This document shows positions 17,049 through 42,608 of a stretch of DNA of 49,887 bases, piece by piece. The stretch comes from Methanobacteriota archaeon. GTDB lineage: Archaea; Thermoplasmatota; Poseidoniia; Poseidoniales; Thalassarchaeaceae. The stretch is from NCBI GenBank assembly GCA_002725475.1, contig PBPH01000011.1, positions 1-49,887 on the forward strand, in the 5' to 3' direction. The notes beneath the pieces were generated by a model. It did not search any database. It was not told the DNA's origin and saw only the letters and a list, made by a program, of their open reading frames with translations. How positions within the stretch are numbered: position 1 is the stretch's first letter; each line of letters begins with the position of its first letter. Made by a program: the position numbers and the translations under genes.

Positions 17049-17196
17049 AAACCCCCCTTTTTCCCTCGATATGCGATGATGTTCGATAACTAATATAGAT
17101 TAATCATAAACGCTGTACTGCGGGGCTATAGTGTTAGCATTTTTCGCACACGCGCACGAAAGGGGTAATAAGAGAACCCAAAGTCGGTCGGTCAGT

Positions 17197-20100
17197 ATGT
17201 CGAGCCATACCTTTGAACTGAATATGAACAAGTCACGAGTCAAAGCTCTTGCACTCGTAGCATTGATGGTGCTGTCAACTTCATTGGCAGTAATGGATGT
17301 AGCAGCGAGTAATTCGAAGCAATACCCGGTGACAAGAAACCCCTTGGATCTTGCAACTGGAGACTTCGATTGTGACGGAGACGATGATATCGTGACAGCG
17401 AGTGAGATGGGCAATTTCTTGTCTATTCTTTGGAATGATGGAGGGACTTATCAGGATCGTTCTGATATTTGGGTCTCAAACAATAATACACGCCGAGCAG
17501 GATTTACATCCATTGCAGACGTTGGCGCTGTAGAAGTTGGTGATATTGATGACGATGGTCAGGACGATATTGTGTTCTACCAAGGAAACATCCAAGTTTT
17601 TGGTTCTACTGAAGTTATCCGTGGAAATCTAACAGTCCTAACCAATGATGACTGTGCAGGTTCCTTCTCCGAAGATGCAGTTTATACTACCGGGGACATT
17701 CTTTGGGAATTCCAAATTGCTGATGTCAATGGCGATGGTATTGACGATATTGTGGCCCTTGAGCTTCAAGATATTGCATCTGGTACCCAGCGTTTGCTAA
17801 CTTACCTAGGGGGATCACAACGTAACAACGCTGCAACTAATCACAAAATTACAACTCTTGACAACCTAGCTAACAAGGTCTATTCGGATCTAAGGCTCGG
17901 TAATCTTGGTGAAGCAGTAGTAGGTGGTGGTTTGCCAGGGGCAGGTAACGACTGTGATGACCTAGATGCTTTCATCTTCTTCCGTACCGGATATAATGCT
18001 GCTACTGGATATGCAGATGGTGATTGGGACAATGTTTCCATCATTGAATTCGAATGTACGCTCGATACATTCGCTGCATGGAATGACCCTAACAAGCAAC
18101 ATCAAATCAAGTTGAACTCTGAGGCAGGTTCTTTTGATATTGCAGATGCAGATGGTGATGGCAAGATTGACACAATGGCAATTACTGATTTCACATCCGT
18201 TGTAGTACAGACATGCGCTGCGGCACCTTGCCCTGCGCAGAATAATTGGCAACAGGTTGCAGTGTCCCCCACAATAGGGGATTTCATGCCTGCAACAGTT
18301 TCACTTGAGGATGTCAATCAAGATGGTGATGTCGATTTGGTAGTTCCAACATATTCCACAATCACCAGTTTGCAAGGTGCTAGCGGTAACACTGTAACAT
18401 CTTATTCTACTAACAATCTGGATGAATTGAATACTGTACAGATTATTCTTTCAAACGGTGCTGGTGGGTTCTATTCACCGCAGTCAATGCCAGTAGGTCG
18501 AAGACCAACCATGGTTCTTGTAGGGCAATTTGCTGGTGGTCCAAACAGTGCTCTTGATTTGGCAATAGGAAACCGTGATTATACATTCCAATATTCAAAT
18601 GGAGCACTTCACATAGATTCCAAAGGATGTGCTTTTGATCCACTAAATCCACAATTGAATGGTTTTGGTTGCGGAAACTTGGATGCAATTTCAGTTGTAC
18701 AACTTGATAATGAAGATTTAGGGATTTCAGCAATGTCGGTCTCTCCGGCATCTTTCAATCCAGATACTGGTAGTATGACTATTGGTGAAGGAACGCGTGA
18801 AGTTAACGTTACTGTTCAGAACACAGGTCTCGATATGATAAGTGGTACAGTTGATGTTGATGTTTCAGTTAAGGAAATCACGGGTGGAACGGATACAATA
18901 GTATACTCAATGGATTATGATTCTGCACCTACAATCAACTGTGGTAACGGTTGTACTTGGTCATCTGCTGATTATGATGGTGAGCAACTATTCTGGCACG
19001 AAGAATTAGCAGCCAACCATTCAGCAACACCTGATGGTTGGGAGGCTGATGTCAATCCTACAGATTACATGTGGGCTGGAACTTGGTACCCTAATGCTAC
19101 ATCAAACAATCAAATGGAGACTGGATATCTATCCAATCAGGATGAGGCATTAATCCTTAGAAATATTGACCTAAGTGGGGCAGACGCAGCATCGCTAGAG
19201 TTGGATTTATTCTGCACATCAGGTTATTCGCCAGTCCATTATGTGAATGCACAAGGCGGAATTGTTGGAATGGTAATTTATGATGATTCTTGTAACATCG
19301 ATGTATATACTGATGATGATGGATGGGTTCCAGTAATCTATCGAGGAGGTTATGATTCTGTTAGGTTGAATGAATATTACTACAACGGTGGTTCAGTTGA
19401 ATACACCAGCCAAATCTACCATTATTCAGGAATTAACTATAGTTGGATTGATTTGCAAGATAACAATTCTCTTGACCTAACTCCATGGGCGGGTGAAACA
19501 ATTGACATTCGCTTCCGTTTCCGTACAGGCTATGAAGGCAGTGTTGGTTTAGATAATGAATCACGCAACACACAATTCGATGGAATGGCAATTGATAATT
19601 TGACAATTACCAAAACCATTACTCAGTTTGGTCAGATTCAGCCAGTATCACAGAATTTGAATCTAAACAACTTCGCACCAGGAGATGAGCAGTCAATAAT
19701 TCTCAATGCCTACTTTACTAACGACACAGAATATATGATTGAGGCAACACTTTCTTCCCCTACAGGTTTTGTTAATGAAGATGCAAGCAATGATGATATT
19801 CGATGGAAGATGAATGTTCTAAATCTATACGATCCAGCAGTCAGAGAGATTACATCTTTTGAGCCAGGGGCATTGTACGCTTCTGGAGATTACCCAATCG
19901 ATGTGGTTGTTCAGAATGCAGGTAATACTGTAATGGATTTCGATGTTCAAGCAACAGTCTACACAGCTCAACCAAATCCGTTATTTTCCAATCCGTGTAA
20001 GAACGTTGAGGAGTTTGAGCCAAGTTCTTGTGCATACATGTTTGGTGACGATAGTGATGGAATTGGAGGAATTATTGACGACACAGACCCTGCTATTCAG

Positions 20101-23100
20101 AATGCAATAGTTCCAGGCAACAGGCCAATATTTGGTAGCAACGCTTACTGGTTTGGACACCCTGACACTGGATATGGTGATGATTGGAACGAGTCGATGA
20201 CCCTCCAATCAATTGATCTTCGCAATATGGCTGGTGACTTTGCATATCTGACATTCGATTATTTCGCTGAATCTGATTACCTTTCAGATTCAAGTGGTAA
20301 TATTGTGGGTGTCAACGATATGGCCAATCTTGAGATTAGCTGGCGAAAGGGTTCTCAGACTTACCAAGGAGTTGTATACGGCTCATGGAACGATTACAAT
20401 GAGAACGGTATTCAAGGAAATCAGAGTTGTGAAGACATCGATGGTGACGATTACTTCGATGAAGTGGAATTCATGGGTGACCACACTGATGAGGGCAACT
20501 ATGTAATTTGGTTTGACAGTGAAGGATTATTGAAATCTGTAACACTTGACTTAACTCACATCGTTCTGCAGAACCGTACTGGTGCTTCCAATCAATGGAG
20601 GACAGAATGCACATCAATGAGCGGCGCTGAAGTGGATCTAACTTTCCGGTTCTTATCCAATGGTGATGGAATAAATGGGCAGTCAGGATTTGCAGGATTC
20701 GCAATGGATAATATTACTGTACAAGAATACACATTTACTCCAGACCAGTCATATACAAACTCTGTAAGTGATATCGATGCACTTGAGGAGCGAAATGTTA
20801 CGATTGGCACTCATAATTTCCAGCAAGGAATTTATCGAATTGATGTTATGAGTGTGTTTGATAATGTTACTGCTGGTAACAACTGGACAAATGTCAAGGA
20901 AGTCGCACTAGGAAACAACCTTTCTAGAGTGATTTTTGAAGTAGCATCCGTAGATGTAACTCTCTACAGACCTGATGTACTGGACTGTGTAGAAGACGTA
21001 ACCTATGATTGCGTATATCCAAGAGACCAGGCTTTGAATCACGAATTTACTATTCCTCTGAAGAATGGTGTTCTTGAAGGACAGTACAACATCTATCTAG
21101 ACGTGATTGACTCTTCAGGAGCAACTGTTTCTTCAACGGCATCTACTAACAGCCCCTTGACATTAACTCCTCATGAAAGCACCGATGCAACATTCCAACC
21201 ATTTAGTGGATGGCTAGATGGGGAAACATACGAACTGCGTTTCTATTCAGAACTTATAGATGGAACACAATCAGGCAATCAGCAAAATTTCACAATTACT
21301 TTTGCAGATAGTATCGATGTGGCCATTCTATCCAACCCAACCGATCAGAATAGGCTGGAGAGCGTAAAGCAGGATATGGAATCAATGGGAATGACATATA
21401 CTCAATTCCGTCAGAGTGATTGGGATAATTATCTGACAAGTGGATGGTTAGATCATTACGATAAGGTATTACTACCTTGGCAGACAATTGCAAATGTTCA
21501 GGCAAGCGGTTACTATGATACTCTGAGTGTCACTGCAACTGAAACCATCTTGCAGAACTACATGTTAGCTGGTGGAACTGTAGAAATTCATCTTGGTCCG
21601 TTTGCAGAAGGATTGGATGACAAACTTCTGTTTAACATGGTCATTCTAAACCGTGACACTGCAGGAAATCAAATTGAGCACAGTGACCTTAACATTGCAG
21701 ATCCATATCACCCATTACTTGCTAATGTCAGTAGTACTGCATGGCTTGGAATGAACAATGGTAACTATGTTGCAAATGCAGGTTTCTCAACTGATAACTC
21801 TGGGGCAAATCAACTACCAACTCAGTGTGGTGGTAGAATAAACACCCAGCAAGGGACATTCCATAGTTTGCTAAACCATGATGATGACTCAAGTCTTCAT
21901 ATGTTGGTTACTTGTGGATTTGGTAGTGGTGGTTTGATTGTCACTACAATCGATGTTGAAAACCCAAGTGTATCTGAGCCATTCGGCAGCACCTCATCAC
22001 CACTTCGCAGCAATTTGCTTGCTTACCGTGTGACGCCATATCCTACAGAACTTGGAATTGCAGGTAACGGATGGGATCTAACCGTCAATGGTGCACCACC
22101 ATCTGAAGCAGATTCATCCGGTGATTATCCAATGTTGTACCTAAAGTCCAACAGCGTGGTCAACTTAGGATTTACATCCAATATCCCAGGCCTTGATGCA
22201 GATTGGGAAATTAGGGGTGCAACTGATTGGGATCGAAATCAATTCCCTCCCAATGTAGATTTCGCACACCGCGGAGATGATTCGCACAACGTAACTTTCT
22301 GTCTGATTGATACTAGTCCATCAGGAACTGGATGTATTCAAGATGCATCTTGGGATGTTACTCTATACCTTCACGATGCAGAAGGCCACACTAGAATCAC
22401 TCATCTGACTCTAACTACAAACGACATTATTGCGGATGAATCAGACCCAATTGCCAATGTTACAGTTGAGGAACATGCACTATATCCTGACAGCCTCGCA
22501 GATCATGGGACCAAGGAATCACAGGGAATCAACTGGTCAGTATTCCTTGTCAAATTGTCATCCAGTGGTGATGCAAAGGTCAAATTCGATGCTTGTGAAT
22601 CATATGATCCAGATGCAATGAACGGTGAGAAGGGGATAACAACTTACACATGGACAGTATTCCAAGATTATCCATGGAACAACCCTTCAAACGATTACGA
22701 TGGACATACATTTGAGAGAACCGAATCGATGGGTTGTGATTGGACTTACACTTTCCGTAACCAAACAGCTGACCCCTCAGGATTCGCAGAGAACCCTATC
22801 CGTGTTGAATTGGAGGTACAAGACAGAGCAGGCAGAGATTCTGATACATTCAAACTGTATTTCGTTGTAGTCCCAGAAGATTGGGGTGATGATGCTCCTG
22901 TTTGGGAGATTCAAACACCTCTTGACGGTTCAACTCAAACCGGTGAATATGTTTGGGTTAATGGCTCTGTGATTTCTGGTAGCGAAGATGGAGATGTGTC
23001 CATCGAAGCAGCGCTGGACTCTTCCATCCTCAATGAAACAATTGATGAGAAAGTCAAGCAATTACATGATGGTAAGTTTGCTGATGTTAGAAACCTTGGA

Positions 23101-23583
23101 GACGGTGGAGACTTCAGTCTCAAATTGAAGATAGAAGACCTCTATAACGAGAATGGTTCTATCCAGACAATTTACCTCAAGGTTGTTGAAGGAGACGGAC
23201 AAACTTGGACGCTATATCAGCAGATTGACATCAATCTACCACCAGTTGAGACAAATGTAGATCCGTGTGAAGCAGACCCCAATGCTGAGGGTTGTGATGG
23301 TAACTCCAACACAGATACTCAAAGTGGAGGCGGTATGACGAATGCAATTCTGTATGCAGGAATTGGTGCAGTTGTTCTTCTAGTGATTTTCATTATTTCA
23401 CTACTCGTAGTAAGGCGCTCTCGAAAGACTGGTGCTGAAGATGTTACTGGGTTTGCAGGTGTTGCAGGTATGGATCCAATGGAAGCATATGTGCAACAAT
23501 TGATTGCTCAAGGCTATCCTGAAGACACAGCAAGACAGTATGCCCAGCAATACGCAGGCCATTTCCAAGAACAGCAGCAATAG
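17197..23583 (+). CDS. Giant surface protein with FG-GAP/VCBS-like propeller, CARDB-like Ig domains, jelly-roll modules, a C-terminal TM and a cytoplasmic tail
   Basis: The track ORF is 17131..23583 (2150 aa, GTG start). A likelier start is the ATG at 17197, or the one at 17224 ahead of the signal peptide MNKSRVKALALVALMVLSTSLAV. Repeated Ca-binding FG-GAP-like loops are present (DFDCDGDDDIV, GDIDDDGQDDIV, ADVNGDGIDDIV, ADADGDGKIDTM, DVNQDGDVDLV). CARDB-like segments are also present (REVNVTVQNTGL, DVVVQNAGNT). The TM is AILYAGIGAVVLLVIFIISLLVV. Confidence 0.85.
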   Translation: MSSHTFELNMNKSRVKALALVALMVLSTSLAVMDVAASNSKQYPVTRNPLDLATGDFDCDGDDDIVTASEMGNFLSILWNDGGTYQDRSDIWVSNNNTRRAGFTSIADVGAVEVGDIDDDGQDDIVFYQGNIQVFGSTEVIRGNLTVLTNDDCAGSFSEDAVYTTGDILWEFQIADVNGDGIDDIVALELQDIASGTQRLLTYLGGSQRNNAATNHKITTLDNLANKVYSDLRLGNLGEAVVGGGLPGAGNDCDDLDAFIFFRTGYNAATGYADGDWDNVSIIEFECTLDTFAAWNDPNKQHQIKLNSEAGSFDIADADGDGKIDTMAITDFTSVVVQTCAAAPCPAQNNWQQVAVSPTIGDFMPATVSLEDVNQDGDVDLVVPTYSTITSLQGASGNTVTSYSTNNLDELNTVQIILSNGAGGFYSPQSMPVGRRPTMVLVGQFAGGPNSALDLAIGNRDYTFQYSNGALHIDSKGCAFDPLNPQLNGFGCGNLDAISVVQLDNEDLGISAMSVSPASFNPDTGSMTIGEGTREVNVTVQNTGLDMISGTVDVDVSVKEITGGTDTIVYSMDYDSAPTINCGNGCTWSSADYDGEQLFWHEELAANHSATPDGWEADVNPTDYMWAGTWYPNATSNNQMETGYLSNQDEALILRNIDLSGADAASLELDLFCTSGYSPVHYVNAQGGIVGMVIYDDSCNIDVYTDDDGWVPVIYRGGYDSVRLNEYYYNGGSVEYTSQIYHYSGINYSWIDLQDNNSLDLTPWAGETIDIRFRFRTGYEGSVGLDNESRNTQFDGMAIDNLTITKTITQFGQIQPVSQNLNLNNFAPGDEQSIILNAYFTNDTEYMIEATLSSPTGFVNEDASNDDIRWKMNVLNLYDPAVREITSFEPGALYASGDYPIDVVVQNAGNTVMDFDVQATVYTAQPNPLFSNPCKNVEEFEPSSCAYMFGDDSDGIGGIIDDTDPAIQNAIVPGNRPIFGSNAYWFGHPDTGYGDDWNESMTLQSIDLRNMAGDFAYLTFDYFAESDYLSDSSGNIVGVNDMANLEISWRKGSQTYQGVVYGSWNDYNENGIQGNQSCEDIDGDDYFDEVEFMGDHTDEGNYVIWFDSEGLLKSVTLDLTHIVLQNRTGASNQWRTECTSMSGAEVDLTFRFLSNGDGINGQSGFAGFAMDNITVQEYTFTPDQSYTNSVSDIDALEERNVTIGTHNFQQGIYRIDVMSVFDNVTAGNNWTNVKEVALGNNLSRVIFEVASVDVTLYRPDVLDCVEDVTYDCVYPRDQALNHEFTIPLKNGVLEGQYNIYLDVIDSSGATVSSTASTNSPLTLTPHESTDATFQPFSGWLDGETYELRFYSELIDGTQSGNQQNFTITFADSIDVAILSNPTDQNRLESVKQDMESMGMTYTQFRQSDWDNYLTSGWLDHYDKVLLPWQTIANVQASGYYDTLSVTATETILQNYMLAGGTVEIHLGPFAEGLDDKLLFNMVILNRDTAGNQIEHSDLNIADPYHPLLANVSSTAWLGMNNGNYVANAGFSTDNSGANQLPTQCGGRINTQQGTFHSLLNHDDDSSLHMLVTCGFGSGGLIVTTIDVENPSVSEPFGSTSSPLRSNLLAYRVTPYPTELGIAGNGWDLTVNGAPPSEADSSGDYPMLYLKSNSVVNLGFTSNIPGLDADWEIRGATDWDRNQFPPNVDFAHRGDDSHNVTFCLIDTSPSGTGCIQDASWDVTLYLHDAEGHTRITHLTLTTNDIIADESDPIANVTVEEHALYPDSLADHGTKESQGINWSVFLVKLSSSGDAKVKFDACESYDPDAMNGEKGITTYTWTVFQDYPWNNPSNDYDGHTFERTESMGCDWTYTFRNQTADPSGFAENPIRVELEVQDRAGRDSDTFKLYFVVVPEDWGDDAPVWEIQTPLDGSTQTGEYVWVNGSVISGSEDGDVSIEAALDSSILNETIDEKVKQLHDGKFADVRNLGDGGDFSLKLKIEDLYNENGSIQTIYLKVVEGDGQTWTLYQQIDINLPPVETNVDPCEADPNAEGCDGNSNTDTQSGGGMTNAILYAGIGAVVLLVIFIISLLVVRRSRKTGAEDVTGFAGVAGMDPMEAYVQQLIAQGYPEDTARQYAQQYAGHFQEQQQ

Positions 23584-27088: not shown

Positions 27089-27268
27089 ATGCCAAAGGTA
27101 AGGAAGCCAAAGAATGGATGGCCTCGTTTGCCAATTCCGCGGAGGTTTAGGAGAGTAAAAAAGGCAAATTCAGGCTTACCTCCTTGCCCCGAATGTAAAA
27201 AATACTCAGTCAAGAGGGATGAAAGAAGAGGCGAAAAATATTGCTCTGAGTGTGGCCTAACTCTTTGA
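27089..27268 (+). CDS. Small basic zinc-ribbon protein (59 aa)
   Basis: My own translation; the ORF is below the track cutoff: MPKVRKPKNGWPRLPIPRRFRRVKKANSGLPPCPECKKYSVKRDERRGEKYCSECGLTL. It has a CPxC...CxxCG four-Cys ribbon (TFIIB-ribbon-like spacing) and a basic N-terminus. It conflicts with the implausible minus-strand ORF 26971..27213. Confidence 0.5.
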   Translation: MPKVRKPKNGWPRLPIPRRFRRVKKANSGLPPCPECKKYSVKRDERRGEKYCSECGLTL

Positions 27269-27270
27269 GT

Positions 27271-27987
27271 TCAATCGTCTCTTTTTTTCTTAAAAGGGTT
27301 ATTTGGGCTCGTCTTTTTCTTATGATAGCCAACTTTTCTCTTTGTCCCTCCATCACGATTTCCCCAATGTCGAGCTTTTCCCCGTTTGTCTCCACCTTGG
27401 CGACTTCCGCCACCTCTACGTTCGCCACCTCGCTTGTCACGGCCACCACCGCCACTTCTACGATTTCCGCGACCATCGTTACGGCGTTGGTATCCTCCAC
27501 CACTTCTGCGATTTCCACCACTATTGTCACGGCGCTGGTATCCTCCTCCGCCTCCACTTGAGGCATTCTTCGGGCGCTTAGTAGGGCAACGATTGCAGGT
27601 ATCCCTCCAAGCGAAGTTATTATTGTGGCATTTGGGGCATTCCCAATCATTACCACCACGATTACCATCTTTCCCTCGAGTATTTCTAGAACCACTGCGT
27701 CTATCCTGCCTTTTGTTGCGTTGATTGCCCCGGTTACTGTCCTCACGCTTCCTTCTCTGTTGAATCTTAATTTCGGAATCACCAATTGAAGAAACATCTA
27801 ACTCTTTTGCTTTTGGAAAAATGTGCACAAGGGCGCAATCAACACGACCAATCACAGTATCCACTCTTCCAAGGTACAATCCCTCACTTGTTTCAAGTGC
27901 GGCACCAAGTCCTGGGGCTTCACCAGTGAATGAGACCAAAAGTCCCCCTTCATGGCTCTCGCGGTCGACCTTGCCACGGAACTGCAT
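27271..27987 (-). CDS. gar1: Gar1-like H/ACA RNP protein fused to a RanBP2-type zinc finger and an RGG/GAR repeat tail
   Basis: The N-terminal ~75 aa are GKVDRESHEGGLLVSFTGEAPGLGAALETSEGLYLGRVDTVIGRVDCALVHIFP (Gar1 barrel pattern). Residues 115-134, WECPKCHNNNFAWRDTCNRC, equal W-x-C-x2-C-x3-N-x6-C-x2-C. Residues ~144-214 are GGGGGYQRRDNSGGNRRSGGGYQRRNDGRGNRRSGGGGRDKRGGERRGGG. Confidence 0.7.
   Translation of the reverse strand: MQFRGKVDRESHEGGLLVSFTGEAPGLGAALETSEGLYLGRVDTVIGRVDCALVHIFPKAKELDVSSIGDSEIKIQQRRKREDSNRGNQRNKRQDRRSGSRNTRGKDGNRGGNDWECPKCHNNNFAWRDTCNRCPTKRPKNASSGGGGGYQRRDNSGGNRRSGGGYQRRNDGRGNRRSGGGGRDKRGGERRGGGSRQGGDKRGKARHWGNRDGGTKRKVGYHKKKTSPNNPFKKKRDD
27346..27558 (-). repeat. Tandem imperfect coding repeat encoding RGG / GGGYQRR(D/N)xGxGNRRS units
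   Basis: Repeated nucleotide units are visible, for example ...acggcgttggtatcctccaccacttctgcgatttcc... and ...acggcgctggtatcctcctccgcctccactt... The region opens long spurious ORFs in other frames and on the other strand. Confidence 0.6.
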
Positions 27988-28057
27988 AGCCTAGGCCGGT
28001 GGCCTAGGTGTTTTGAACCCACCTGTTTTTTTTTCATCGAAATTTGTAGGTTTTAGT

Positions 28058-30070
28058 TCAATCTTGTCGGCGTCTGACCAATCCGGCACCAATCAACGCT
28101 ATTATTGCAAATCCAATTCCTGGCGCAGGAAGTCCCCCCTCATCAGAGGATGAAACGGTATCTTCAACAATATCTTCCACTACCTCTTCGACCAATTCTA
28201 CATCTTCACTAATCGACGTACATTCGCCAGAAGCATCACAAGCATCTATTCCGATAGTATGGATTCCTTCAGTTAGTAAATCAAATGGAATTTCATCAGT
28301 CTGCCATTGATTTCCAGTCACACTAACTTGTCCTTGCTGAACTCCATCAATTTTCAGTGTGAAGGTGACCGCCTCTCCATCAGGATCTGAAAAATAACCT
28401 CTTAGAATGTAGTTGGCATCAACCCACTCGTAGCCAGAAATTTCGATAGTCGGTGGGACACTTTGCTTGGATAGACCCAAATCATACATGTAGTCAAATT
28501 GTGCCATTCCGGCAGCTGTGGCTTGAACATGTACATTTACAGCACCCGGTGAAAGTGTACCAGCACTTGCCGTAATTACCGAATCAGAACCATCAAGGGT
28601 GAAAGAAACGGGTACTTCAACCCCATTTTGCATCAATGTCAATGTTACTGACATTGTCTCGCTGTAAGTTGGGCTGAAACTGAATGAAAAATCGTCTAAT
28701 GTAGTTGTATTAGAGGGTGTAATGCTAAAAATTGGTGCGACATCAAAAGTTCTAGGTCCGCTAGTTTGTTGGCTACTGTCGGTCGCTTCACAAGTTACAG
28801 TGGTACTTTCTCCTGCTGAAGGTGAAATAACGGTCCAATGATTTGCTTCAGCTTCTTCAAGACTCCAACCTTCCGCTCCACTACAATCAACGTTGAGCAT
28901 TCCAGCACCCAAATCATCATCGAACCAACAGTTGATATCAGCTAAATCTACGATATATTCGCTCTCACCAAGGCCTGCAACAGGCAATCTGTAATTATCA
29001 GCAGGGGAACAGGTATTCCAAGTAGGGGGATTGTCAATCGCTGGTGGCATTGTTGTGAAATCTAAGAAATATTCTCGTGATGCAGGCCAATCCTGATTAT
29101 CATAAGTAAATCTTCTAGAAAATTCAGTGCCATCAGTTACAGCAATCATGGAATAATCCAAATCATCATCGATTTGATAGGACTGGCATTCATCTCTAGA
29201 CTCATATGTTTGCCCATAATCATCCGCCTCTTCATCCTCTTCAGTATATGTAGTGCTACAGTCATGTTCTTCATATGTATTGGCAATTCGTAGTTGATTC
29301 TCTTGGGGTGGGAATGTGTAAGTAAATTGGGCATTGGTCAAATTTCTTCCAACCATTGCGAGGGTGAAATTTGTAGAATCTATTGGCTCATCAAACCCAA
29401 CTGATGCATTAAGATAGATGATTGTATCACAACTATGTGGTCCACAAGCCCCTTGGTTTGCAGGATAGACAGGTACTTCTTCACAAGTGATTGTCCCTGT
29501 TGGCCCACCGAACTGATCTTGGCACCCCCTTCTTTCAGGATGTCCTTCGGGAATCAGGTTGGTTTCTTCCAATGTCATCCCTTCTTTAATCCAAGTTGCA
29601 TTATTCCAGTTCACTCCAGGGCCACCTCTATGAGCGGGCCCTCCCCTGAAACCGATACGAGTGTAGGTCTGAACTACGCAATCTATTCCAATTGCTTCAA
29701 CACCATCTTTTTCATCAGTTGATAACCAGTTGTTGTCCCCTCCTGGGAGACCCTCGAAAAGGCCATCAAGACTTTCTCTGAGGTCGCCAGCATAGGTTCC
29801 ATTCACCATTGCCATTGCTCTAACAGAAGCACCATCCCAATTTTGATTGATTACCACATTAAAATCAGCATAGTTGTAGTAAAACATATCCTCAAATGAA
29901 TATCCAGTACAATCTGCTTCAACTTGTCTTCCAGTAGCCGAGTTCAGAGTATCAATTTCATTAGTTTCTTCTTCAATCATAGTTGGTTCTGTAACATGCA
30001 GTAGAGATGAAAAAATCATCAATGCTACCAATATCAATGCGAAGTAGACCCGTCCATTTCTTGTCGCCAT
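28058..30070 (-). CDS. Secreted surface protein with a PGF-CTERM-like archaeal anchor
   Basis: 670 aa. The signal peptide is RVYFALILVALMIFSSLL, followed by a Cys-containing acidic ectodomain and C-terminal Ig-like modules. The terminal sequence GGLPAPGIGFAIIALIGAGLVRRRQD resembles an archaeosortase PGF-CTERM sorting signal. Confidence 0.75.
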   Translation of the reverse strand: MATRNGRVYFALILVALMIFSSLLHVTEPTMIEEETNEIDTLNSATGRQVEADCTGYSFEDMFYYNYADFNVVINQNWDGASVRAMAMVNGTYAGDLRESLDGLFEGLPGGDNNWLSTDEKDGVEAIGIDCVVQTYTRIGFRGGPAHRGGPGVNWNNATWIKEGMTLEETNLIPEGHPERRGCQDQFGGPTGTITCEEVPVYPANQGACGPHSCDTIIYLNASVGFDEPIDSTNFTLAMVGRNLTNAQFTYTFPPQENQLRIANTYEEHDCSTTYTEEDEEADDYGQTYESRDECQSYQIDDDLDYSMIAVTDGTEFSRRFTYDNQDWPASREYFLDFTTMPPAIDNPPTWNTCSPADNYRLPVAGLGESEYIVDLADINCWFDDDLGAGMLNVDCSGAEGWSLEEAEANHWTVISPSAGESTTVTCEATDSSQQTSGPRTFDVAPIFSITPSNTTTLDDFSFSFSPTYSETMSVTLTLMQNGVEVPVSFTLDGSDSVITASAGTLSPGAVNVHVQATAAGMAQFDYMYDLGLSKQSVPPTIEISGYEWVDANYILRGYFSDPDGEAVTFTLKIDGVQQGQVSVTGNQWQTDEIPFDLLTEGIHTIGIDACDASGECTSISEDVELVEEVVEDIVEDTVSSSDEGGLPAPGIGFAIIALIGAGLVRRRQD

Positions 30071-38990: not shown

Positions 38991-41900
38991 TCAATTATAT
39001 TGCGAACATGATTTACAATAATCAGCGCCATATGAAGGGATGTGATGAACTTCCATTGCTCCACAATGCTTGCAGGGCTTTCCAGTAGGCACCATTTCTC
39101 CTGTTTGGCCTCCAGTACTAGTATCGGTGGTCGATGGTGCGGCAGCAGAGGGCGTAGTTTTGGTACTAGAAAGTTGAGCTTCTGCAACTGCTAGAGAAGG
39201 AATCGCTGGCATCGCCGGCTCATTTTTTCCGCCCATCAAGAGTAATGCTGCGACGCCAATTAATAGCAGTATTACTACTGCAAAAATTGCCCCAACAAGC
39301 ATTGTACTAACCCCTTCGCTAGAAGCGGTTTCAGTCCCATCTCCACCATCATCGGAAGTGCTAGTATTGGTACCATCGTCATCATCTTCTGTGTCATCAC
39401 TACCACCTTCTCCTGCACCCGGGAAGTCTAGTGGGTAGTAAGGGTCAGTACCGTTTTCCATTTCTGCAACATCAGAGTAACCATCTCCATCATCATCATC
39501 ATCTAAATCATCGGCAATACCGTCATTATCAAAGTCAGGACAACCAACCAATTCGCCGCTAGATGTACCGAAGTTGTTTGGACAATCATCGCCATTTGTA
39601 CCAGTTTGATTATCACCGAATCCATCTCCATCAGAATCGTATTGCTGGCTAGGATCTTGCGGTAAGAAGTCAATCTTGTCGTTCACTCCATCTTCATCGT
39701 TATCTCTTTGACTTTCTCCACAACCATTGAGATCGACAGTTTCACCCATTTCGGTATCTGGGCACTGATCTTGTGAATCACTAACACCATCTTGGTCCGA
39801 ATCTCTTTGTTCGTCTGAACAACCGATGTTATCGACAGTTACGAGGTCAGTTGTATTGGGGCATTGGTCTTGTGCATCGTTAACTCCGTCCTCGTCAGAA
39901 TCTTTCTGACTGGGGCTACATCCATCGCTATCTACCAGATGTCCTTCATATCCGGGCGTATTGGGGCACAAATCCAATGCATTTGAGACACCATCATAGT
40001 CGTCGTCTCGTTGCTCATAAGCGCAACCCCATAAGTCAATATTTTCTGCACCATAAGGAGTATCTGGGCATTGGTCATCATCATTTTCTACAAAGTCGTG
40101 ATCAGCTTCCCATGCGAACCTCTTGAGTTCTCTTAATTCTGAAAGTTCTGAACTGGTGTGATACCAAACCTCTTCCCAACCATCATCACTAACCATTAGC
40201 TTAGGATAAAGTCCAGCTGTAGCATCATCAATGACAGTTAGAGTTTCCCAACCTGTTCTAGTTGGGGACGCAATTTGCAAAGCACCTTTGCCACTATCAT
40301 ACCACGTTGAATGAATTAGTCCAGCCGAATCTTCAACTACTGACATGTATGAAACAAGTGTGTCGCTTCTCTGGTCAAGAATATGGTAGTTGAAAGACGA
40401 ACCATCCCATTCAGCAACTTGGACAGTACATTCTTGAGGTGCATCGCAGGTTGTATCACTTGAACTATCTCGTCCGCGGAAGTAATTGATTAGTAAGCGC
40501 CCATCATCAGTTACGTCTGTATCTAATCGATAAAAACCAACGACTCCGCTGGTGGTAACATTGTGGATGTCCCAATTAGAACCGTTTTCAATTGCTAGAC
40601 GAATCATTACAGGATTACTACTGTAATAAGATACGTGGGCTACATCATTTACGTAGTCAACACTAGCGTAAGTTCCATTTGCCTGAATAGTTTCTTCAAT
40701 CCAACTGCTTCCAGATTCTCTAGCTACTTTCAATTCAGAATATGCTCCAGAATTATCAGTATAAGATACAATTCTGCTCCCCGTCGAATCAACTGCTACA
40801 TCCGTGTACCATCCAGTAGAGTCGTCATTTGCGATAACCTCAACTGACCAATCACTACCTGTTTTGGTAGCAATCTTTGCTGCAGTTTCAGTGACTCCAC
40901 CAATTTCGTTTACCGCAGTTTTTGCGTGGAATGCAACACTTTCGGTCCCATCAGATGCAATTGCTAAAGAGGCATATCTTCCAGTTTCTCCTCCTTGATC
41001 TAATATTTCTGATGCTCCCCAAGTACCATCAGAATTTTGTTTTCGATAAATTAGATTGCAATCATTAGTCATGTTACTAGGAGCCCTGTCACAAGAATTA
41101 TCATTGTTTGAGTATCCCCTGAAGTGTACAAGTCGAAGTAAGCCATCATCACCTTTTGCTACATCAACATATGCAAAATCATCGTCTCCACTACTAGTGA
41201 GAATTTGCTTTTCGTAATGACATCCAGTATCATCAATAACTCTACCAGCAGGCGTGTTCATGCACCTGTCTTGAGCATCTGCAATTCCATCACCGTCAGC
41301 ATCTGCTGCAGGGGTTGCAATAATCAAATCATCATCATCATTATCATAGTAAGAAAACACCTCGCCGCCATTTTGGTCTATTGCAATATCGGCGTATGAG
41401 CCAACACTTCCAATACTTGCAATTTTCTTTGATTCCCATGAAGTTGCTTGCTGTCTAAGCAATACTAAATCAGAGTTTGAGTAGTCATAGTAAGATATGT
41501 GTAAATCACCAACCGAATCACTTTCAATTCTTACATAATCACCAATATTGTTAGTCCCATTTGCTATCATACTGTGGGACCAACTATTCCCGTCCTTGAC
41601 TGCTAATCGGACACTATCCCAGCCAGATGTATTTTGATATGCTATGAATTCATTTCCATTTGAGTCTATTTCTAATTGCAGCCACCATGCAGGATAGTAT
41701 TGTCTTCCGGTTTCATTAATGTGAATATCATTAATTCCCCATCCACCACCATCGAATGCCGCATATCGTAATGAAAATGTGTACCATGCAGAAATTGTTG
41801 TTCCAGTCACAGGGTCGCTGATACTGTTAACAAGAGCACAAGTATAAGCTACCCTAGGTCTCCCATTATCTCCTATTTGGAGACTACTAAATTGTCCAAT

Positions 41901-42608
41901 ATCCGAATAATCATCGTAATCCCCAGATTCGCCAAGCCCGTTATCTATTGTCCCATAAGCCCATGATTGATCACTGCTATCCCAATTTGCAAATGATAGA
42001 TTATATTCGCCATTATGTTCAGTATAGAAAGAGAACCATTCAGAATCAGAATCATCAATTGCGAATCCTATCCTCCCTTCACCAGCGTATGGATTTCCAT
42101 CACCTGTATTTTCACCTGGAGCTACAGTGTTGGTGCTCCATGAATTCCCATCATATCGTGAAATTCTAAGCACCGCGTTGGTAATGTCAAAAGATGCAAT
42201 TCTCGGATTTCCATTAGAATCAATGTCAATCTCAGCATATTTCCCAATATCTCCGAAAGTGTAAACATCATCAACTTGCCAAGACCAACCATTCCAATGA
42301 GCAACTTTCAAATCGCGCCCTGCTGCAGAGTAGAAAGCAACCCAAACCGTCCCATCGTCAGCGATATCCGAGGAGGTCCATTGTCCAGTATCGCCATCGG
42401 TATCTACCGTTTCTTTCAGCCACGCTGTAGCGGCGCTAGAACGGGCCTCAGCAGGCCAATTTTCAGAATCTCTAGGCATTTCAACTTCAGTTTGTTCTAC
42501 TTCACTCATTTCTGTTGTGTTTGTAACAGCAATTGGGCTAAGTGAGGTCAAAATCAACACAAATAGCAGCATTATCGGGGCTGTAGTGGGCACACGGCTC
42601 ATGGACAT
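38991..42608 (-). CDS. Giant surface protein: beta-propeller-like repeats, thrombospondin type-3 Ca-binding repeats, a TM helix and a cytoplasmic zinc ribbon
   Basis: 1205 aa. A signal peptide is followed by at least 10 degenerate repeats of the form G-x-Y-x-(S/D)-(I/L)-x-(I/V)-D-S-x-G-x-x-x-(I/V)-(A/S)-Y (for example GKYAEIDIDSNGNPRIASF, GSYADIAIDQNGGEVFSYY, GWYTDVAVDSTGSRIVSYT). TSP3-like D-rich repeats follow (DDDQCPDTP, DSDEDGVNDAQDQCPNT, DSDQDGVSDSQDQCPDT). The TM is MLVGAIFAVVILLLIGVAALLLM and the terminal ribbon is CKHCG...CKSC. Confidence 0.85.
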   Translation of the reverse strand: MSMSRVPTTAPIMLLFVLILTSLSPIAVTNTTEMSEVEQTEVEMPRDSENWPAEARSSAATAWLKETVDTDGDTGQWTSSDIADDGTVWVAFYSAAGRDLKVAHWNGWSWQVDDVYTFGDIGKYAEIDIDSNGNPRIASFDITNAVLRISRYDGNSWSTNTVAPGENTGDGNPYAGEGRIGFAIDDSDSEWFSFYTEHNGEYNLSFANWDSSDQSWAYGTIDNGLGESGDYDDYSDIGQFSSLQIGDNGRPRVAYTCALVNSISDPVTGTTISAWYTFSLRYAAFDGGGWGINDIHINETGRQYYPAWWLQLEIDSNGNEFIAYQNTSGWDSVRLAVKDGNSWSHSMIANGTNNIGDYVRIESDSVGDLHISYYDYSNSDLVLLRQQATSWESKKIASIGSVGSYADIAIDQNGGEVFSYYDNDDDDLIIATPAADADGDGIADAQDRCMNTPAGRVIDDTGCHYEKQILTSSGDDDFAYVDVAKGDDGLLRLVHFRGYSNNDNSCDRAPSNMTNDCNLIYRKQNSDGTWGASEILDQGGETGRYASLAIASDGTESVAFHAKTAVNEIGGVTETAAKIATKTGSDWSVEVIANDDSTGWYTDVAVDSTGSRIVSYTDNSGAYSELKVARESGSSWIEETIQANGTYASVDYVNDVAHVSYYSSNPVMIRLAIENGSNWDIHNVTTSGVVGFYRLDTDVTDDGRLLINYFRGRDSSSDTTCDAPQECTVQVAEWDGSSFNYHILDQRSDTLVSYMSVVEDSAGLIHSTWYDSGKGALQIASPTRTGWETLTVIDDATAGLYPKLMVSDDGWEEVWYHTSSELSELRELKRFAWEADHDFVENDDDQCPDTPYGAENIDLWGCAYEQRDDDYDGVSNALDLCPNTPGYEGHLVDSDGCSPSQKDSDEDGVNDAQDQCPNTTDLVTVDNIGCSDEQRDSDQDGVSDSQDQCPDTEMGETVDLNGCGESQRDNDEDGVNDKIDFLPQDPSQQYDSDGDGFGDNQTGTNGDDCPNNFGTSSGELVGCPDFDNDGIADDLDDDDDGDGYSDVAEMENGTDPYYPLDFPGAGEGGSDDTEDDDDGTNTSTSDDGGDGTETASSEGVSTMLVGAIFAVVILLLIGVAALLLMGGKNEPAMPAIPSLAVAEAQLSSTKTTPSAAAPSTTDTSTGGQTGEMVPTGKPCKHCGAMEVHHIPSYGADYCKSCSQYN
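39440..40105 (-). repeat. Coding tandem array of thrombospondin type-3-like calcium-binding repeats (approximate bounds)
   Basis: A reiterated D-x-D-x-D-G-(V/I)-x-D-x-x-D-x-C-P-(D/N)-T unit appears at the protein level. Matching gat/gac-rich periodicity is visible in the DNA. Confidence 0.6.

What the first reader, a model, noticed from the sequence alone, without database searches (positions are those of the whole stretch)
27271..27987. Archaeal Gar1-like protein carrying a RanBP2-type zinc finger and a eukaryote-style RGG/GAR tail
The first ~75 aa have the Gar1 beta-barrel pattern of H/ACA pseudouridylation RNPs. Archaeal Gar1 proteins normally end shortly after this core. Here the protein continues with a basic linker and a zinc finger matching the RanBP2 consensus exactly (WECPKCHNNNFAWRDTCNRC = W-x-C-x2-C-x3-N-x6-C-x2-C, nt 27577-27648). 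About 70 aa of tandem RGG/GGGYQRR repeats follow (nt ~27346-27558), then a Lys-rich end. Gly/Arg-rich domains are the defining feature of eukaryotic Gar1. RGG-ZnF(RanBP2)-RGG is the RNA-binding architecture of eukaryotic FET-type proteins (FUS/EWS/TAF15). Finding both on an archaeal Gar1 core suggests either independent invention or an ancestral link. It also raises the possibility of RGG-driven RNA binding or condensation in an archaeal H/ACA RNP.
Basis: partly seen in the sequence, partly recalled or inferred. Interest (0 to 1): 0.8.

Follow-up and report, generated by a model that had tools for sequence, protein, structure and literature searches.

The report
Archaeal Gar1 with RNA-binding zinc-finger tail
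A marine archaeon's version of Gar1, a small core protein of the RNA-guided pseudouridine machinery, carries a eukaryote-type RNA-binding zinc finger and a disordered glycine/arginine-rich tail, features that textbooks say archaeal Gar1 lacks, and this layout is shared across the whole order Poseidoniales.

Summary
ORF 27271-27987 (-) encodes 238 aa with five parts.

- Gar1 beta-barrel, aa 1-80. AlphaFold pLDDT is 88-95. The top 11 Foldseek PDB hits are all Gar1 chains. The family profile finds only Gar1.
- Basic linker, aa 81-111.
- One RanBP2-type zinc finger, aa 112-139. It passes Pfam's cut-off, and all six FUS GGU-contact residues are identical.
- Disordered Gly/Arg-rich stretch, aa 140-215.
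- Lys-rich end carrying a family-conserved motif.

The window has 3 RGG triplets and two copies of a 16-aa unit, whereas relatives have up to 36 RGG.

The gene is not unique. Orthologues sit at one syntenic locus in 80 of 80 Poseidoniales (Marine Group II) species genomes retrieved, with 0-4 fingers, and 57 of 66 complete genes have at least one. The next-nearest proteins among 1.84 billion representatives are ordinary 75-95 aa archaeal Gar1.

Databases call these proteins "zinc finger protein" or "hypothetical". None of my seven literature searches found a description of the fusion, and reviews state that archaeal Gar1 lacks GAR regions.

Most likely this is the H/ACA Gar1 subunit with an added single-stranded-RNA-binding tail. 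RNA binding, condensation and sole-Gar1 status are untested. I rate it a new variant of a known kind, interest about 0.6.

The parts
27271..27987 (-). Whole gene: 238-aa Gar1-like protein with a C-terminal extension (the stop codon is 27271-27273)
   Evidence: ORF listing and sequence. Orthologues occupy a syntenic locus in 80 Poseidoniales genomes.
27748..27987 (-). Gar1 core domain, aa 1-80: a six-stranded beta-barrel
   Evidence: AF2 pLDDT is 88-95, with strands E4-10, 16-21, 30-33, 38-46, 53-59 and 72-75. Foldseek ranks 1-11 are Gar1 chains. Profile and hhalign matches to P. furiosus Gar1. 42% identity, E=1e-21, to the PF04410-positive protein P0053.
27655..27747 (-). Basic, disordered linker, aa 81-111 (9 R in 31 aa, net charge +7, one RGG)
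   Evidence: Composition. pLDDT is below 50 for aa 84-111.
27571..27654 (-). RanBP2-type C4 zinc finger, aa 112-139. The Cys ligands are C117, C120, C131 and C134. The predicted RNA-contact residues are D114, N122, F125, W127, R128 and N132.
   Evidence: Pfam PF00641 scores 29.8 bits against a cut-off of 27. PDB hits are FUS ZnF 6g99 at E=4e-5 and ZRANB2 2k1p/3g9y at E=0.0026. pLDDT is 83-94. Residue mapping uses with the contact residues from PMC12344763 and PMC11789483.
27343..27570 (-). Disordered Gly/Arg-rich region, aa 140-215 (36% G, 22% R, net charge +15). It includes two tandem 16-aa units, aa 147-178, nt 27454-27549.
   Evidence: Composition and motif counts. TRF finds a 48-nt period with 2.0-2.2 copies. 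The two units are 40/48 identical. pLDDT is below 50.
27274..27342 (-). Lys-rich C-terminus, aa 216-238, containing the family-conserved motif G-Y-H-K-K-K-T-S-P-N-N-P-F
   Evidence: Related motifs (GHAHKRKSPGNPF, KGHHRKLKDPPPL, GHAHNRPPRDL) occur at the C-terminus in at least 35 of 63 complete orthologues from both Poseidoniales families.
27990..28008 (-). 8-bp perfect GC-rich hairpin (CCTAGGCC-acc-GGCCTAGG) 2 nt upstream of the start codon. It may be a regulatory element of this gene. Its function is unknown.
   Evidence: Inverted repeat. The same position in related loci holds hairpins with different but still complementary stems.

Best explanation
The gene encodes the Gar1 subunit of the box H/ACA pseudouridylation RNP of a Thalassarchaeaceae (Marine Group II, Poseidoniales) archaeon.

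The N-terminal barrel would dock on the pseudouridine synthase Cbf5 and regulate its thumb loop and product release, as in other archaea. This step is inferred from homology.

Canonical archaeal Gar1 has only a short basic C-terminal tail. In this order the tail has grown into a long RNA-binding appendage with four parts:
- a basic linker;
- one FUS/ZRANB2-class RanBP2 zinc finger (up to four in relatives), predicted to grip single-stranded GGU-like triplets;
- a disordered Gly/Arg-rich segment that would bind RNA non-specifically;
- a conserved C-terminal peptide motif that may bind a partner.

The appendage gives direct, multivalent RNA contacts to the one H/ACA protein that normally does not touch RNA. 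It probably helps recruit or hold rRNA/tRNA substrates, or clusters the RNP on nascent rRNA.

Shown here: the fold, the domain identities, conservation, orthology by synteny, and predicted disorder. Inferred: Cbf5 binding, RNA binding and its GGU preference, and the effect on catalysis.
For: **Gar1 identity**
- The AF2 barrel is confident and Foldseek ranks 1-11 are all Gar1 chains.
- The family profile finds P. furiosus and yeast Gar1 in the PDB.
- hhalign gives 83% probability, E=8.7e-6.
- 19 of 23 cores hit PF04410.
- Against 1.84e9 representatives there are 113 family members, followed only by 75-95 aa canonical Gar1.
- JGI and NCBI name finger-less or truncated members Gar1.

**Orthology**
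- One conserved locus (surface protein, gar1, TPR protein, AdoHcy hydrolase) is present in 65-76 of 80 genomes.

**Finger**
- It passes the Pfam cut-off.
- It is closest to the FUS and ZRANB2 RNA-binding fingers.
- It matches 6 of 6 FUS GGU-contact residues.
- Across 133 unique family fingers, four of the six contact positions (D, the F/Y stacking residue, R and one N-x-N Asn position) are 100% conserved and the other two Asn positions are 86%; the W440-equivalent position varies (F 59%, W 17%).

**Tail**
- It is predicted disordered, with 58% G+R and net charge +15.

**Background**
- RGG domains of yeast Gar1 modulate RNP dynamics and substrate turnover, and are thought to contact substrate RNA (PMC8096250).
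Against: - The window protein itself fails the curated Gar1 thresholds. Pfam gives no hit, and NCBIfam gives 16.4 bits against a cut-off of 132.
- No Cbf5, Nop10, L7Ae or H/ACA guide RNA lies in the window.
- I could not scan a whole Poseidoniales genome for a second, canonical Gar1.
- RNA binding was not measured. The position equivalent to FUS W440 / ZRANB2 R81 varies in the family (F, W, K or R), so specificity may differ.
- This gene's tail has only 3 RGG triplets.
- Some orthologues lack fingers altogether, so the finger is not essential to the protein's core role.
Confidence: 0.75

Rival explanations
1. The protein is a neofunctionalised Gar1-like paralogue, or a Naf1-like assembly factor. 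It would be a stand-alone RNA-binding protein that reuses the Gar1 barrel and works outside the H/ACA RNP, while a separate short Gar1 serves Cbf5.
For: The core is divergent. The window sequence misses the Pfam and NCBIfam Gar1 cut-offs. The family forms a discrete cluster separated by a score gap from canonical Gar1. Pfam PF04410 also covers Naf1.
Against: Foldseek prefers Gar1 (TM 0.81) over the Naf1 Gar1-domain (TM 0.52-0.57, rank 31). The gene sits at a single conserved locus across the order, with no second family member seen. The paired loci within one MAG are syntenic strain variants. Naf1 is known only from eukaryotes (general knowledge).
Confidence: 0.12
2. The zinc finger mediates protein-protein contacts, as the Npl4-type ubiquitin-binding or Nup153-type Ran-binding fingers do, rather than binding RNA. 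The tail would then be a protein-interaction or localisation module.
For: The RanBP2 finger fold is used for both protein and RNA binding in eukaryotes (PMC8034646 abstract). Weak PDB hits to Nup153 and HOIL-1-type fingers exist at E=0.5-2.
Against: The best hits are the RNA-binding fingers of FUS, ZRANB2, ZNF265 and RBM10. All six FUS GGU-contact residues are identical and largely conserved family-wide. The Thr-Phe dipeptide that I recall defines ubiquitin-binding NZF fingers is replaced by His-Asn (sequence, plus my own knowledge of the motif). The flanks are strongly basic, as expected for RNA binding.
Confidence: 0.06
3. The feature is an artefact: an assembly chimera, a collapsed or expanded repeat, or eukaryotic contamination fused to an archaeal gene.
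For: Repeats of this kind do break assemblies. Many database copies are truncated at contig ends or frameshifted.
Against: An independent contig gives a 99%-identical 238-aa protein. 80 syntenic loci from independent MAGs and single-cell genomes carry the same layout. The flanking genes are typical Poseidoniales genes.
Confidence: 0.01

Closest known systems
Archaeal Gar1 (e.g. Pyrococcus furiosus Gar1 in the Cbf5-Nop10-Gar1 / H/ACA RNP structures 2EY4, 2HVY, 3HAY)
   Same: The six-stranded barrel matches: TM 0.81-0.82, rmsd 2.3-2.4 A, 26% identity over about 77 aa. The signature G-x-V-D-x-V-x-G-x-V-x-x-P aligns. Both have a basic C-terminal end.
   Different: Canonical proteins are 75-95 aa with only a short basic tail (PMC7991803). 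This one is 238 aa, with a zinc finger, a Gly/Arg-rich disordered region and a conserved terminal motif. Its core falls below the curated Gar1 HMM cut-offs.
Eukaryotic Gar1/GAR1 (yeast 3U28, human telomerase H/ACA lobe 7BGB/7TRC)
   Same: A Gar1 barrel plus long Gly/Arg-rich disordered extension(s), thought to add accessory RNA binding and to promote phase separation (PMC8096250, PMC9633708, PMC9957100).
   Different: Eukaryotic GAR domains flank the core on both sides, contain 10 or more RGG with Phe as the main spacer, and have no zinc finger. Here the extension is C-terminal only and includes a RanBP2 finger. It has 3 RGG in this gene (up to 36 in relatives), with N/D/S/Q/Y spacers. Arg methylation status is unknown.
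FET-family RGG-ZnF-RGG module (FUS/EWS/TAF15; FUS ZnF-RNA structure 6G99)
   Same: This is the best PDB sequence match for the finger (E=4e-5). The alignment to FUS 420-520 runs through the finger into the RGG3-like region. D, N, F, W, R and N contact residues are identical.
   Different: There is no RRM, no SYGQ low-complexity domain and no PY-NLS. The finger has C-x2-C where FUS has C-x4-C. The module is attached to an H/ACA core protein. It is not a FET family member.
ZRANB2 (tandem RanBP2 fingers that each bind GGU; 3G9Y)
   Same: The finger subclass is the same (E=0.0026). Relatives of the window protein carry 2-4 fingers separated by flexible linkers, like ZRANB2's two-finger array.
   Different: The position equivalent to ZRANB2 R81 is W127 here, as in FUS. 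ZRANB2 has an SR-like domain and a splicing context. The window protein has a single finger.

Membership tests
Gar1 (H/ACA RNP subunit; Pfam PF04410, NCBIfam PRK13149 models) | Six-stranded Gar1 beta-barrel fold | tested here: met
   The AF2 model has pLDDT 88-95 for aa 1-80. Foldseek ranks 1-11 are all Gar1 chains, TM 0.81-0.82 to P. furiosus Gar1.
Gar1 (H/ACA RNP subunit; Pfam PF04410, NCBIfam PRK13149 models) | Sequence-profile homology to Gar1 | tested here: met
   Family profile to PDB Gar1, E=6.8e-4. hhalign E=8.7e-6. 19 of 23 cores hit PF04410, best 1.4e-7. The exhaustive search finds only canonical Gar1 beyond the family. Window to P0053 (PF04410-positive): E=1e-21.
Gar1 (H/ACA RNP subunit; Pfam PF04410, NCBIfam PRK13149 models) | The window protein alone passes the curated HMM cut-offs (a detection criterion, not a biological one) | tested here: not met
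   There is no Pfam Gar1 hit for the window protein. NCBIfam NF009629 scores 16.4 bits against a cut-off of 132. Even P0053 fails the NCBIfam equivalog cut-offs.
Gar1 (H/ACA RNP subunit; Pfam PF04410, NCBIfam PRK13149 models) | Binds Cbf5 and functions in an H/ACA RNP with Nop10, L7Ae and a guide RNA | not testable with these tools
   No partner genes or H/ACA RNAs lie in the window. No multimer modelling or biochemistry was available.
Gar1 (H/ACA RNP subunit; Pfam PF04410, NCBIfam PRK13149 models) | It is the only Gar1 gene of the genome (true orthologue) | not tested
   Whole Poseidoniales genomes could not be scanned. The indirect support is a single syntenic locus in 80 species genomes.
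RanBP2-type zinc finger (Pfam PF00641) | W-x-C-x2-C-x10-C-x2-C spacing and a score above the Pfam gathering cut-off | tested here: met
   aa 115-134 read WECPKCHNNNFAWRDTCNRC. The score is 29.8 bits against a cut-off of 27, E=3.6e-7. pLDDT is 83-94.
RNA-binding subclass of RanBP2 fingers (ZRANB2/FUS/EWS/TAF15/RBM5/RBM10) | Residues that read GGU: Asp before the Trp, N-x-N, an aromatic stacking residue, Arg, and Asn after the third Cys | tested here: met
   D114, N122, F125, W127, R128 and N132 are identical to FUS D425, N435, F438, W440, R441 and N445. F125, R128 and N132 align to ZRANB2 W79, R82 and N86.
RNA-binding subclass of RanBP2 fingers (ZRANB2/FUS/EWS/TAF15/RBM5/RBM10) | Measured binding to GGU-containing single-stranded RNA | not testable with these tools
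   This needs EMSA, ITC or RBNS with recombinant protein.
Long GAR/RGG domain of nucleolar proteins (eukaryotic Gar1, fibrillarin, nucleolin) | More than 50 aa with 10 or more RGG/RG repeats (criterion in PMC9957100) | tested here: not met
   The window has 3 RGG and 8 RG in the whole protein. Close orthologues do meet it: L001 has 24 RGG and L003 has 36.
Long GAR/RGG domain of nucleolar proteins (eukaryotic Gar1, fibrillarin, nucleolin) | Gly/Arg-dominated, intrinsically disordered segment | tested here: met
   58% G+R over aa 140-215. pLDDT is below 50 for aa 145-229.
Long GAR/RGG domain of nucleolar proteins (eukaryotic Gar1, fibrillarin, nucleolin) | Arginine methylation by PRMTs, and a role in condensate formation | not testable with these tools
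   This needs proteomics and in vitro phase-separation assays.
FET family (FUS/EWS/TAF15) | SYGQ low-complexity domain, RRM, RGG-ZnF-RGG and PY-NLS | tested here: not met
   Only the ZnF plus Gly/Arg-rich part is present. Pfam finds no RRM. The N-terminus is a Gar1 barrel.

The most novel reading that the evidence does not exclude
Poseidoniales may have built a nucleolar/FET-style multivalent RNA-binding module onto an H/ACA core protein, either convergently or by gene exchange with eukaryotes. The module consists of arrays of GGU-reading RanBP2 fingers interleaved with RGG-rich disordered spacers. It would concentrate the rRNA-modification machinery on nascent rRNA in a condensate-like body, giving a nucleolus-like organisation in an archaeon that is not on the eukaryotic stem. 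Finger and repeat copy number would vary rapidly between strains and tune this behaviour.
Probability: 0.12. Interest if true: 0.85.

Novelty: new variant of a known kind. Interest (0 to 1): 0.6.

Why it matters
GAR/RGG extensions on Gar1 and fibrillarin are treated as eukaryote-specific inventions tied to the nucleolus (PMC7991803, PMC9957100, PMC8096250). RanBP2 fingers of the FUS/ZRANB2 class are treated as eukaryotic RNA-binding modules. Here an abundant order of marine archaea carries both on its Gar1.

- **A natural experiment.** The same core protein comes with 0, 1, 2, 3 or 4 fingers and from 0 to 36 RGG. This allows direct tests of what such tails do for an H/ACA RNP: substrate recruitment, turnover and clustering.
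- **A tractable system.** It is a small prokaryotic system for studying RGG and zinc-finger cooperation and condensation.
- **An annotation fix.** These genes are currently labelled 'zinc finger protein' or 'hypothetical' and should be recognised as Gar1.
- **A caution for MAG work.** The repeats fragment assemblies, so the gene is often truncated in MAGs.

Tried and rejected
- **Genome scan with the 23-sequence core alignment.** It failed because no stretch was conserved enough. I repeated it with a 7-sequence alignment and the pattern SHEGGLLVS. That pattern is family-specific, so it says nothing about other archaeal orders.
- **Word-indexed profile search.** It returned mostly short partial or frameshifted copies of the same family and did not reach other lineages. 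The exhaustive HMMER search did.
- **Viral-contig scan for the finger.** It gave 31 loci, but the proteins are unrelated small Cys-rich or zinc-ribbon proteins without the N-x-N-F-x-x-R signature. This was a dead end for the origin question.
- **Rfam searches.** Run at gathering threshold on the whole window and at E<=1 on 20-36 kb, they found only two tRNAs and no H/ACA or C/D RNAs.
- **Sigma-70 promoter and intrinsic terminator scan.** The result was at chance level, and these models do not suit archaea.
- **Overlapping ORFs in the repeat region.** 27210-27797 (-), 27250-27561 (+), 27303-27581 (+) and 27386-27724 (+) were set aside as by-products of the low-complexity Gly/Arg coding. Only the Gar1 frame has homologues.
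- **The 59-aa convergent ORF as a TFB remnant.** I considered this, but it is only a generic zinc ribbon, with Pfam just at the cut-off and weak PDB hits to eL42 and TFIIB.
- **A third word-indexed protein search with the tail alone.** I did not run it. A single 30-aa finger cannot reach significance in a database of 5.8 billion sequences, and the full-length query had already brought in no non-Gar1 finger protein.
Full report
**1. Observation**

The minus-strand ORF 27271-27987 encodes 238 aa.

- Pfam assigns aa 112-139 to Zn_ribbon_RanBP (PF00641), E=3.6e-7, 29.8 bits against the curated cut-off of 27.
- aa 140-215 are 36% Gly and 22% Arg with net charge +15. aa 216-238 contain 8 Lys.
- No other finger of this kind and no other Gly/Arg-rich stretch occurs in the 50-kb window.

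The 'tandem RGG repeat' description is too generous for this gene.

- There are two copies of a 16-aa unit, GGGYQRRDNSGGNRRS and GGGYQRRNDGRGNRRS.
- At DNA level the period is 48 nt and 40 of 48 bases are identical.
- The whole protein has 3 RGG triplets and 8 RG dipeptides.

An independent ENA contig encodes a 99%-identical protein of identical length (P0001). The repeat length is therefore not an assembly artefact.

**2. The N-terminal domain is Gar1**

On the single sequence the signal is weak.

- NCBIfam Gar1 gives E=0.007 and 16.4 bits against a cut-off of 132.
- P. furiosus Gar1 (2hvy_B) gives E=0.13.
- Pfam gives no Gar1 hit.

Family-level evidence is strong.

- A profile of 23 orthologous cores (A1) finds P. 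furiosus Gar1 chains as its four best PDB hits (E=7e-4 to 1.4e-3) and then yeast Gar1.
- hhalign against the P. furiosus sequence gives 83% probability, E=8.7e-6, over the whole barrel.
- 19 of the 23 cores hit Pfam PF04410 on their own, best 1.4e-7.
- The window protein is 42% identical (E=1e-21) to P0053. That protein carries PF04410, and JGI names it 'rRNA processing protein Gar1'.
- An AlphaFold2 model built on 35 homologues has pLDDT 88-95 for aa 1-80, with six strands.
- Foldseek against the PDB returns Gar1 chains at ranks 1-11. P. furiosus comes first (TM 0.81-0.82, rmsd 2.3-2.4 A, 26% identity), then human, yeast and insect GAR1. The Naf1 Gar1-domain appears only at rank 31.

I also ran the core profile exhaustively against 1.84 billion representative proteins.

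- It finds 141 proteins at E<=1e-3, of which 113 are at E<=1e-10. Those 113 are this family.
- After a score gap come short proteins of 75-95 aa.
- These are canonical archaeal Gar1. Nine of ten tested hit PF04410, and five of those score above the gathering cut-off.
- Nothing other than Gar1 is related to this domain, apart from two chance matches to repeat proteins.

**3. The finger and the tail**

- The best PDB sequence matches of the finger are the RNA-binding fingers of FUS (6g99, E=4e-5), ZRANB2 (2k1p/3g9y, E=0.0026), ZNF265 and RBM10. Nup153 and HOIL-1-type fingers score far lower.
- I combined the HMMER alignment and residue numbering with the published FUS-RNA contacts. In FUS, D425 and W440 read G2. 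R441 and F438 (stacking) read G3. N435 and N445 read U4 (PMC12344763).
- The window residues D114, N122, F125, W127, R128 and N132 are identical at all six positions.
- They also match ZRANB2 at W79 (aromatic), R82 and N86 (PMC11789483).
- Across 133 unique fingers from the family, D, the second Asn of N-x-N, F/Y and R are 100% conserved. The two remaining Asn positions are 86% conserved. The W127 position varies: F 59%, W 17%, K 14%, R 7%.
- The finger is confidently modelled (pLDDT 83-94). The linker (aa 84-111) and aa 145-229 are predicted disordered.

**4. Distribution and orthology**

- All 63 first-round homologues carry the same core motif. 46 of them have PF00641 and none of those lists PF04410.
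- The names given by sources are 'zinc finger protein' or 'hypothetical protein' from Thalassarchaeaceae, Poseidoniaceae or Poseidoniales MAGs.
- A scan of one genome per GTDB species returned 80 loci. Seventy-nine carry Poseidoniales, MG-II or generic marine archaeal (Euryarchaeota, Methanobacteriota, Thermoplasmatota) labels, and one sits in a Rhodobacteraceae MAG (L020, probably mis-binned). They include the original MG-II assembly CM001443.1.
- Among 66 complete genes, the finger count is 0 in 9, 1 in 3, 2 in 25, 3 in 22 and 4 in 7. RGG counts run from 0 to 36.
- The gene order is conserved. The upstream 670-aa surface protein is present in 76 loci, the downstream TPR protein in 65, and AdoHcy hydrolase in 50. 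All these variants are therefore orthologues at one locus.

Clustering of the cores gives four groups:

| Clade | Fingers | Tail | C-terminal motif |
|---|---|---|---|
| Window's clade (Thalassarchaeaceae; nearest are ARS80/L001 and Ts_MAG_36/L008) | 1 | RGG-rich | ...PNNPF |
| Sister clade | 0 | Gly/Arg-rich | ...GNPF |
| Other Thalassarchaeaceae | 0-4, some with a C-x2-C-x10-C-x4-C variant | few RGG | none seen |
| Poseidoniaceae | 2-4 | 0-29 RGG | ...KGHHRK..PPPL / GHAHNRPPRDL |

- The C-terminal motif occurs in at least 35 of 63 complete genes. This argues that the tail is a functional, selected element and not junk.
- Pairs of loci from the same MAG are syntenic and differ in finger number, for example L034 with 3 and L040 with 2. 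Copy number therefore varies between close strains.

**5. Context in the window**

- The neighbours are ordinary genes: AdoHcy hydrolase, an AlkD-like protein, a TPR protein, DUF2061, ABC transporters, aconitase, POR and NFACT. The window also has two tRNAs.
- No Cbf5, Nop10, L7Ae or guide RNAs were found. The gene is not in an RNA-modification operon.

**6. Mechanism (best explanation, confidence about 0.75)**

- By homology, the barrel is the Gar1 subunit that binds Cbf5 and controls the thumb loop and product release. In canonical archaeal RNPs, Gar1 is the only protein that does not touch RNA (PMC8096250).
- Canonical archaeal Gar1 already ends in a short basic tail. In Poseidoniales this tail has expanded by tandem duplication into linker, finger and Gly/Arg modules.
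- I infer that each finger grips a GGU-like single-stranded triplet and that the Gly/Arg stretches add non-specific affinity. Together they would give the RNP extra multivalent contacts to substrate or nascent rRNA.
- In yeast, the Gar1 RGG domains alter RNP dynamics. They speed catalysis on bound substrate but slow exchange, which points to contacts with substrate RNA (PMC8096250). In C. elegans and human, GAR1 RG/RGG repeats contribute to nucleolar phase separation (PMC9633708 and the bioRxiv preprint 10.1101/2025.01.30.635772, listed).
- Whether the archaeal tail does any of this is untested.

**7. Rivals**

- **A neofunctionalised paralogue outside the H/ACA RNP (about 0.12).** I cannot exclude it because I could not scan whole genomes for a second Gar1.
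- **A protein-binding finger (about 0.06).** The contact-residue identity and the best-hit pattern argue against it.
- **An artefact (about 0.01).** Independent assemblies and synteny exclude it.

**8. Origin**

- The finger shares 38% identity and all the RNA-contact residues with FUS. This suggests common descent of the finger rather than reinvention.
- The Gly/Arg tracts are low-complexity and could easily be convergent.
- As far as the searches could see, the extended architecture occurs only in Poseidoniales, and the nearest outgroups are short Gar1. This favours a lineage-specific gain, possibly by gene transfer, over an ancestral archaeal-eukaryotic link.
- I did not survey Asgard or other archaeal orders specifically, and the viral-contig scan was uninformative.

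**9. Novelty**

- Reviews state that archaeal Gar1 lacks GAR regions (PMC7991803). They also state that the GAR domain of fibrillarin is eukaryotic (PMC9957100).
- Seven full-text searches combining Gar1, RanBP2, RGG, archaea, Poseidoniales, MG-II and PF00641 found no description of this fusion.
- Automated annotation sees only one half at a time. Full-length proteins get PF00641 or 'zinc finger protein', and truncated N-terminal fragments get 'GAR1/NAF1'.
- It is therefore a new variant of a known kind (Gar1). It is order-wide rather than a singleton, and moderately surprising to specialists.

Noticed in passing
window 27990-28008 (minus strand, 2 nt upstream of the ATG at 27987); L001-L019 just upstream of the gar1 start: An 8-bp perfect GC-rich hairpin (CCTAGGCC-acc-GGCCTAGG) sits just before the start codon. 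Related loci keep a hairpin at the same place with different, still complementary stems: GGCCaccGGCC, CGGGCCaccGGCCCG and CGCCGGtcgaCCGGCG. It is absent from the Poseidoniaceae loci. In the window, L001 and L008, a GGUGGGUU stretch lies about 15 nt further upstream. It might be a translational or autoregulatory element.
   Followed up: partly
window 27089-27268 (+): A 59-aa ORF lies convergent with gar1, and its stop is 3 nt from the gar1 stop. It has a basic N-terminus and a C4 zinc ribbon that just reaches the Pfam TFIIB zinc-ribbon cut-off (29.5 against 29). PDB hits to eL42 and TFIIB are weak. It is conserved only in the closest relatives: L001 at 95%, L003 and L006 at 57-59%.
   Followed up: partly
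L034/L040, L047/L051, L062/L063: Three MAGs each contain two syntenic copies of the locus on different contigs. In two of the three pairs the copies differ in zinc-finger number (3 against 2); L062/L063 both have 2. These look like co-binned strain variants, which implies rapid copy-number change of the finger and spacer modules.
   Followed up: partly
L016, L018, L020-L025, L028-L033 (Thalassarchaeaceae loci); P0045, P0046: A variant finger has spacing C-x2-C-x10-C-x4-C (…CNRTGC… / …CNRSNC…) and Lys in place of the Arg/Trp position. It often occurs in 2-3 near-identical tandem modules.
   Followed up: no
P0064-P0182, P0187, P0193, P0203, P0215 and others: Many database copies of this gene are cut at contig ends or frameshifted inside the repeat region, including copies on contigs longer than 1 Mb. 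The Gly/Arg and finger repeats break short-read assemblies and cause errors in long-read ones, so the gene is systematically under-annotated.
   Followed up: partly
L020 (PARX01000028.1): A contig deposited in a 'Rhodobacteraceae bacterium' MAG carries the Poseidoniales gar1 locus with its usual neighbours. It is most likely a mis-binned archaeal contig.
   Followed up: no
window 28058-30070 (-): The 670-aa acidic protein directly upstream has no Pfam domain. It has a signal-like N-terminus and a PGF-CTERM-like end (PAPGIGFAIIALIGAGLVRRRQD), but TIGR04126 scores only 16 bits against a cut-off of 24.5. It is the most conserved neighbour of gar1, present in 76 of 80 loci.
   Followed up: partly
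window 17131-23583 (+) and 38991-42608 (-): Two very large ORFs of 2150 aa and 1205 aa have almost no recognisable domains. The first has a single FG-GAP-like repeat. They are presumably surface proteins.
   Followed up: no
P0268, P0270: These are borderline family members with a distinct core (…VVVRTTHEGGLLVNVDGPVPKLG…) and an 80-110 aa basic tail without a finger. They may come from a neighbouring lineage and could mark an intermediate stage of tail expansion.
   Followed up: no
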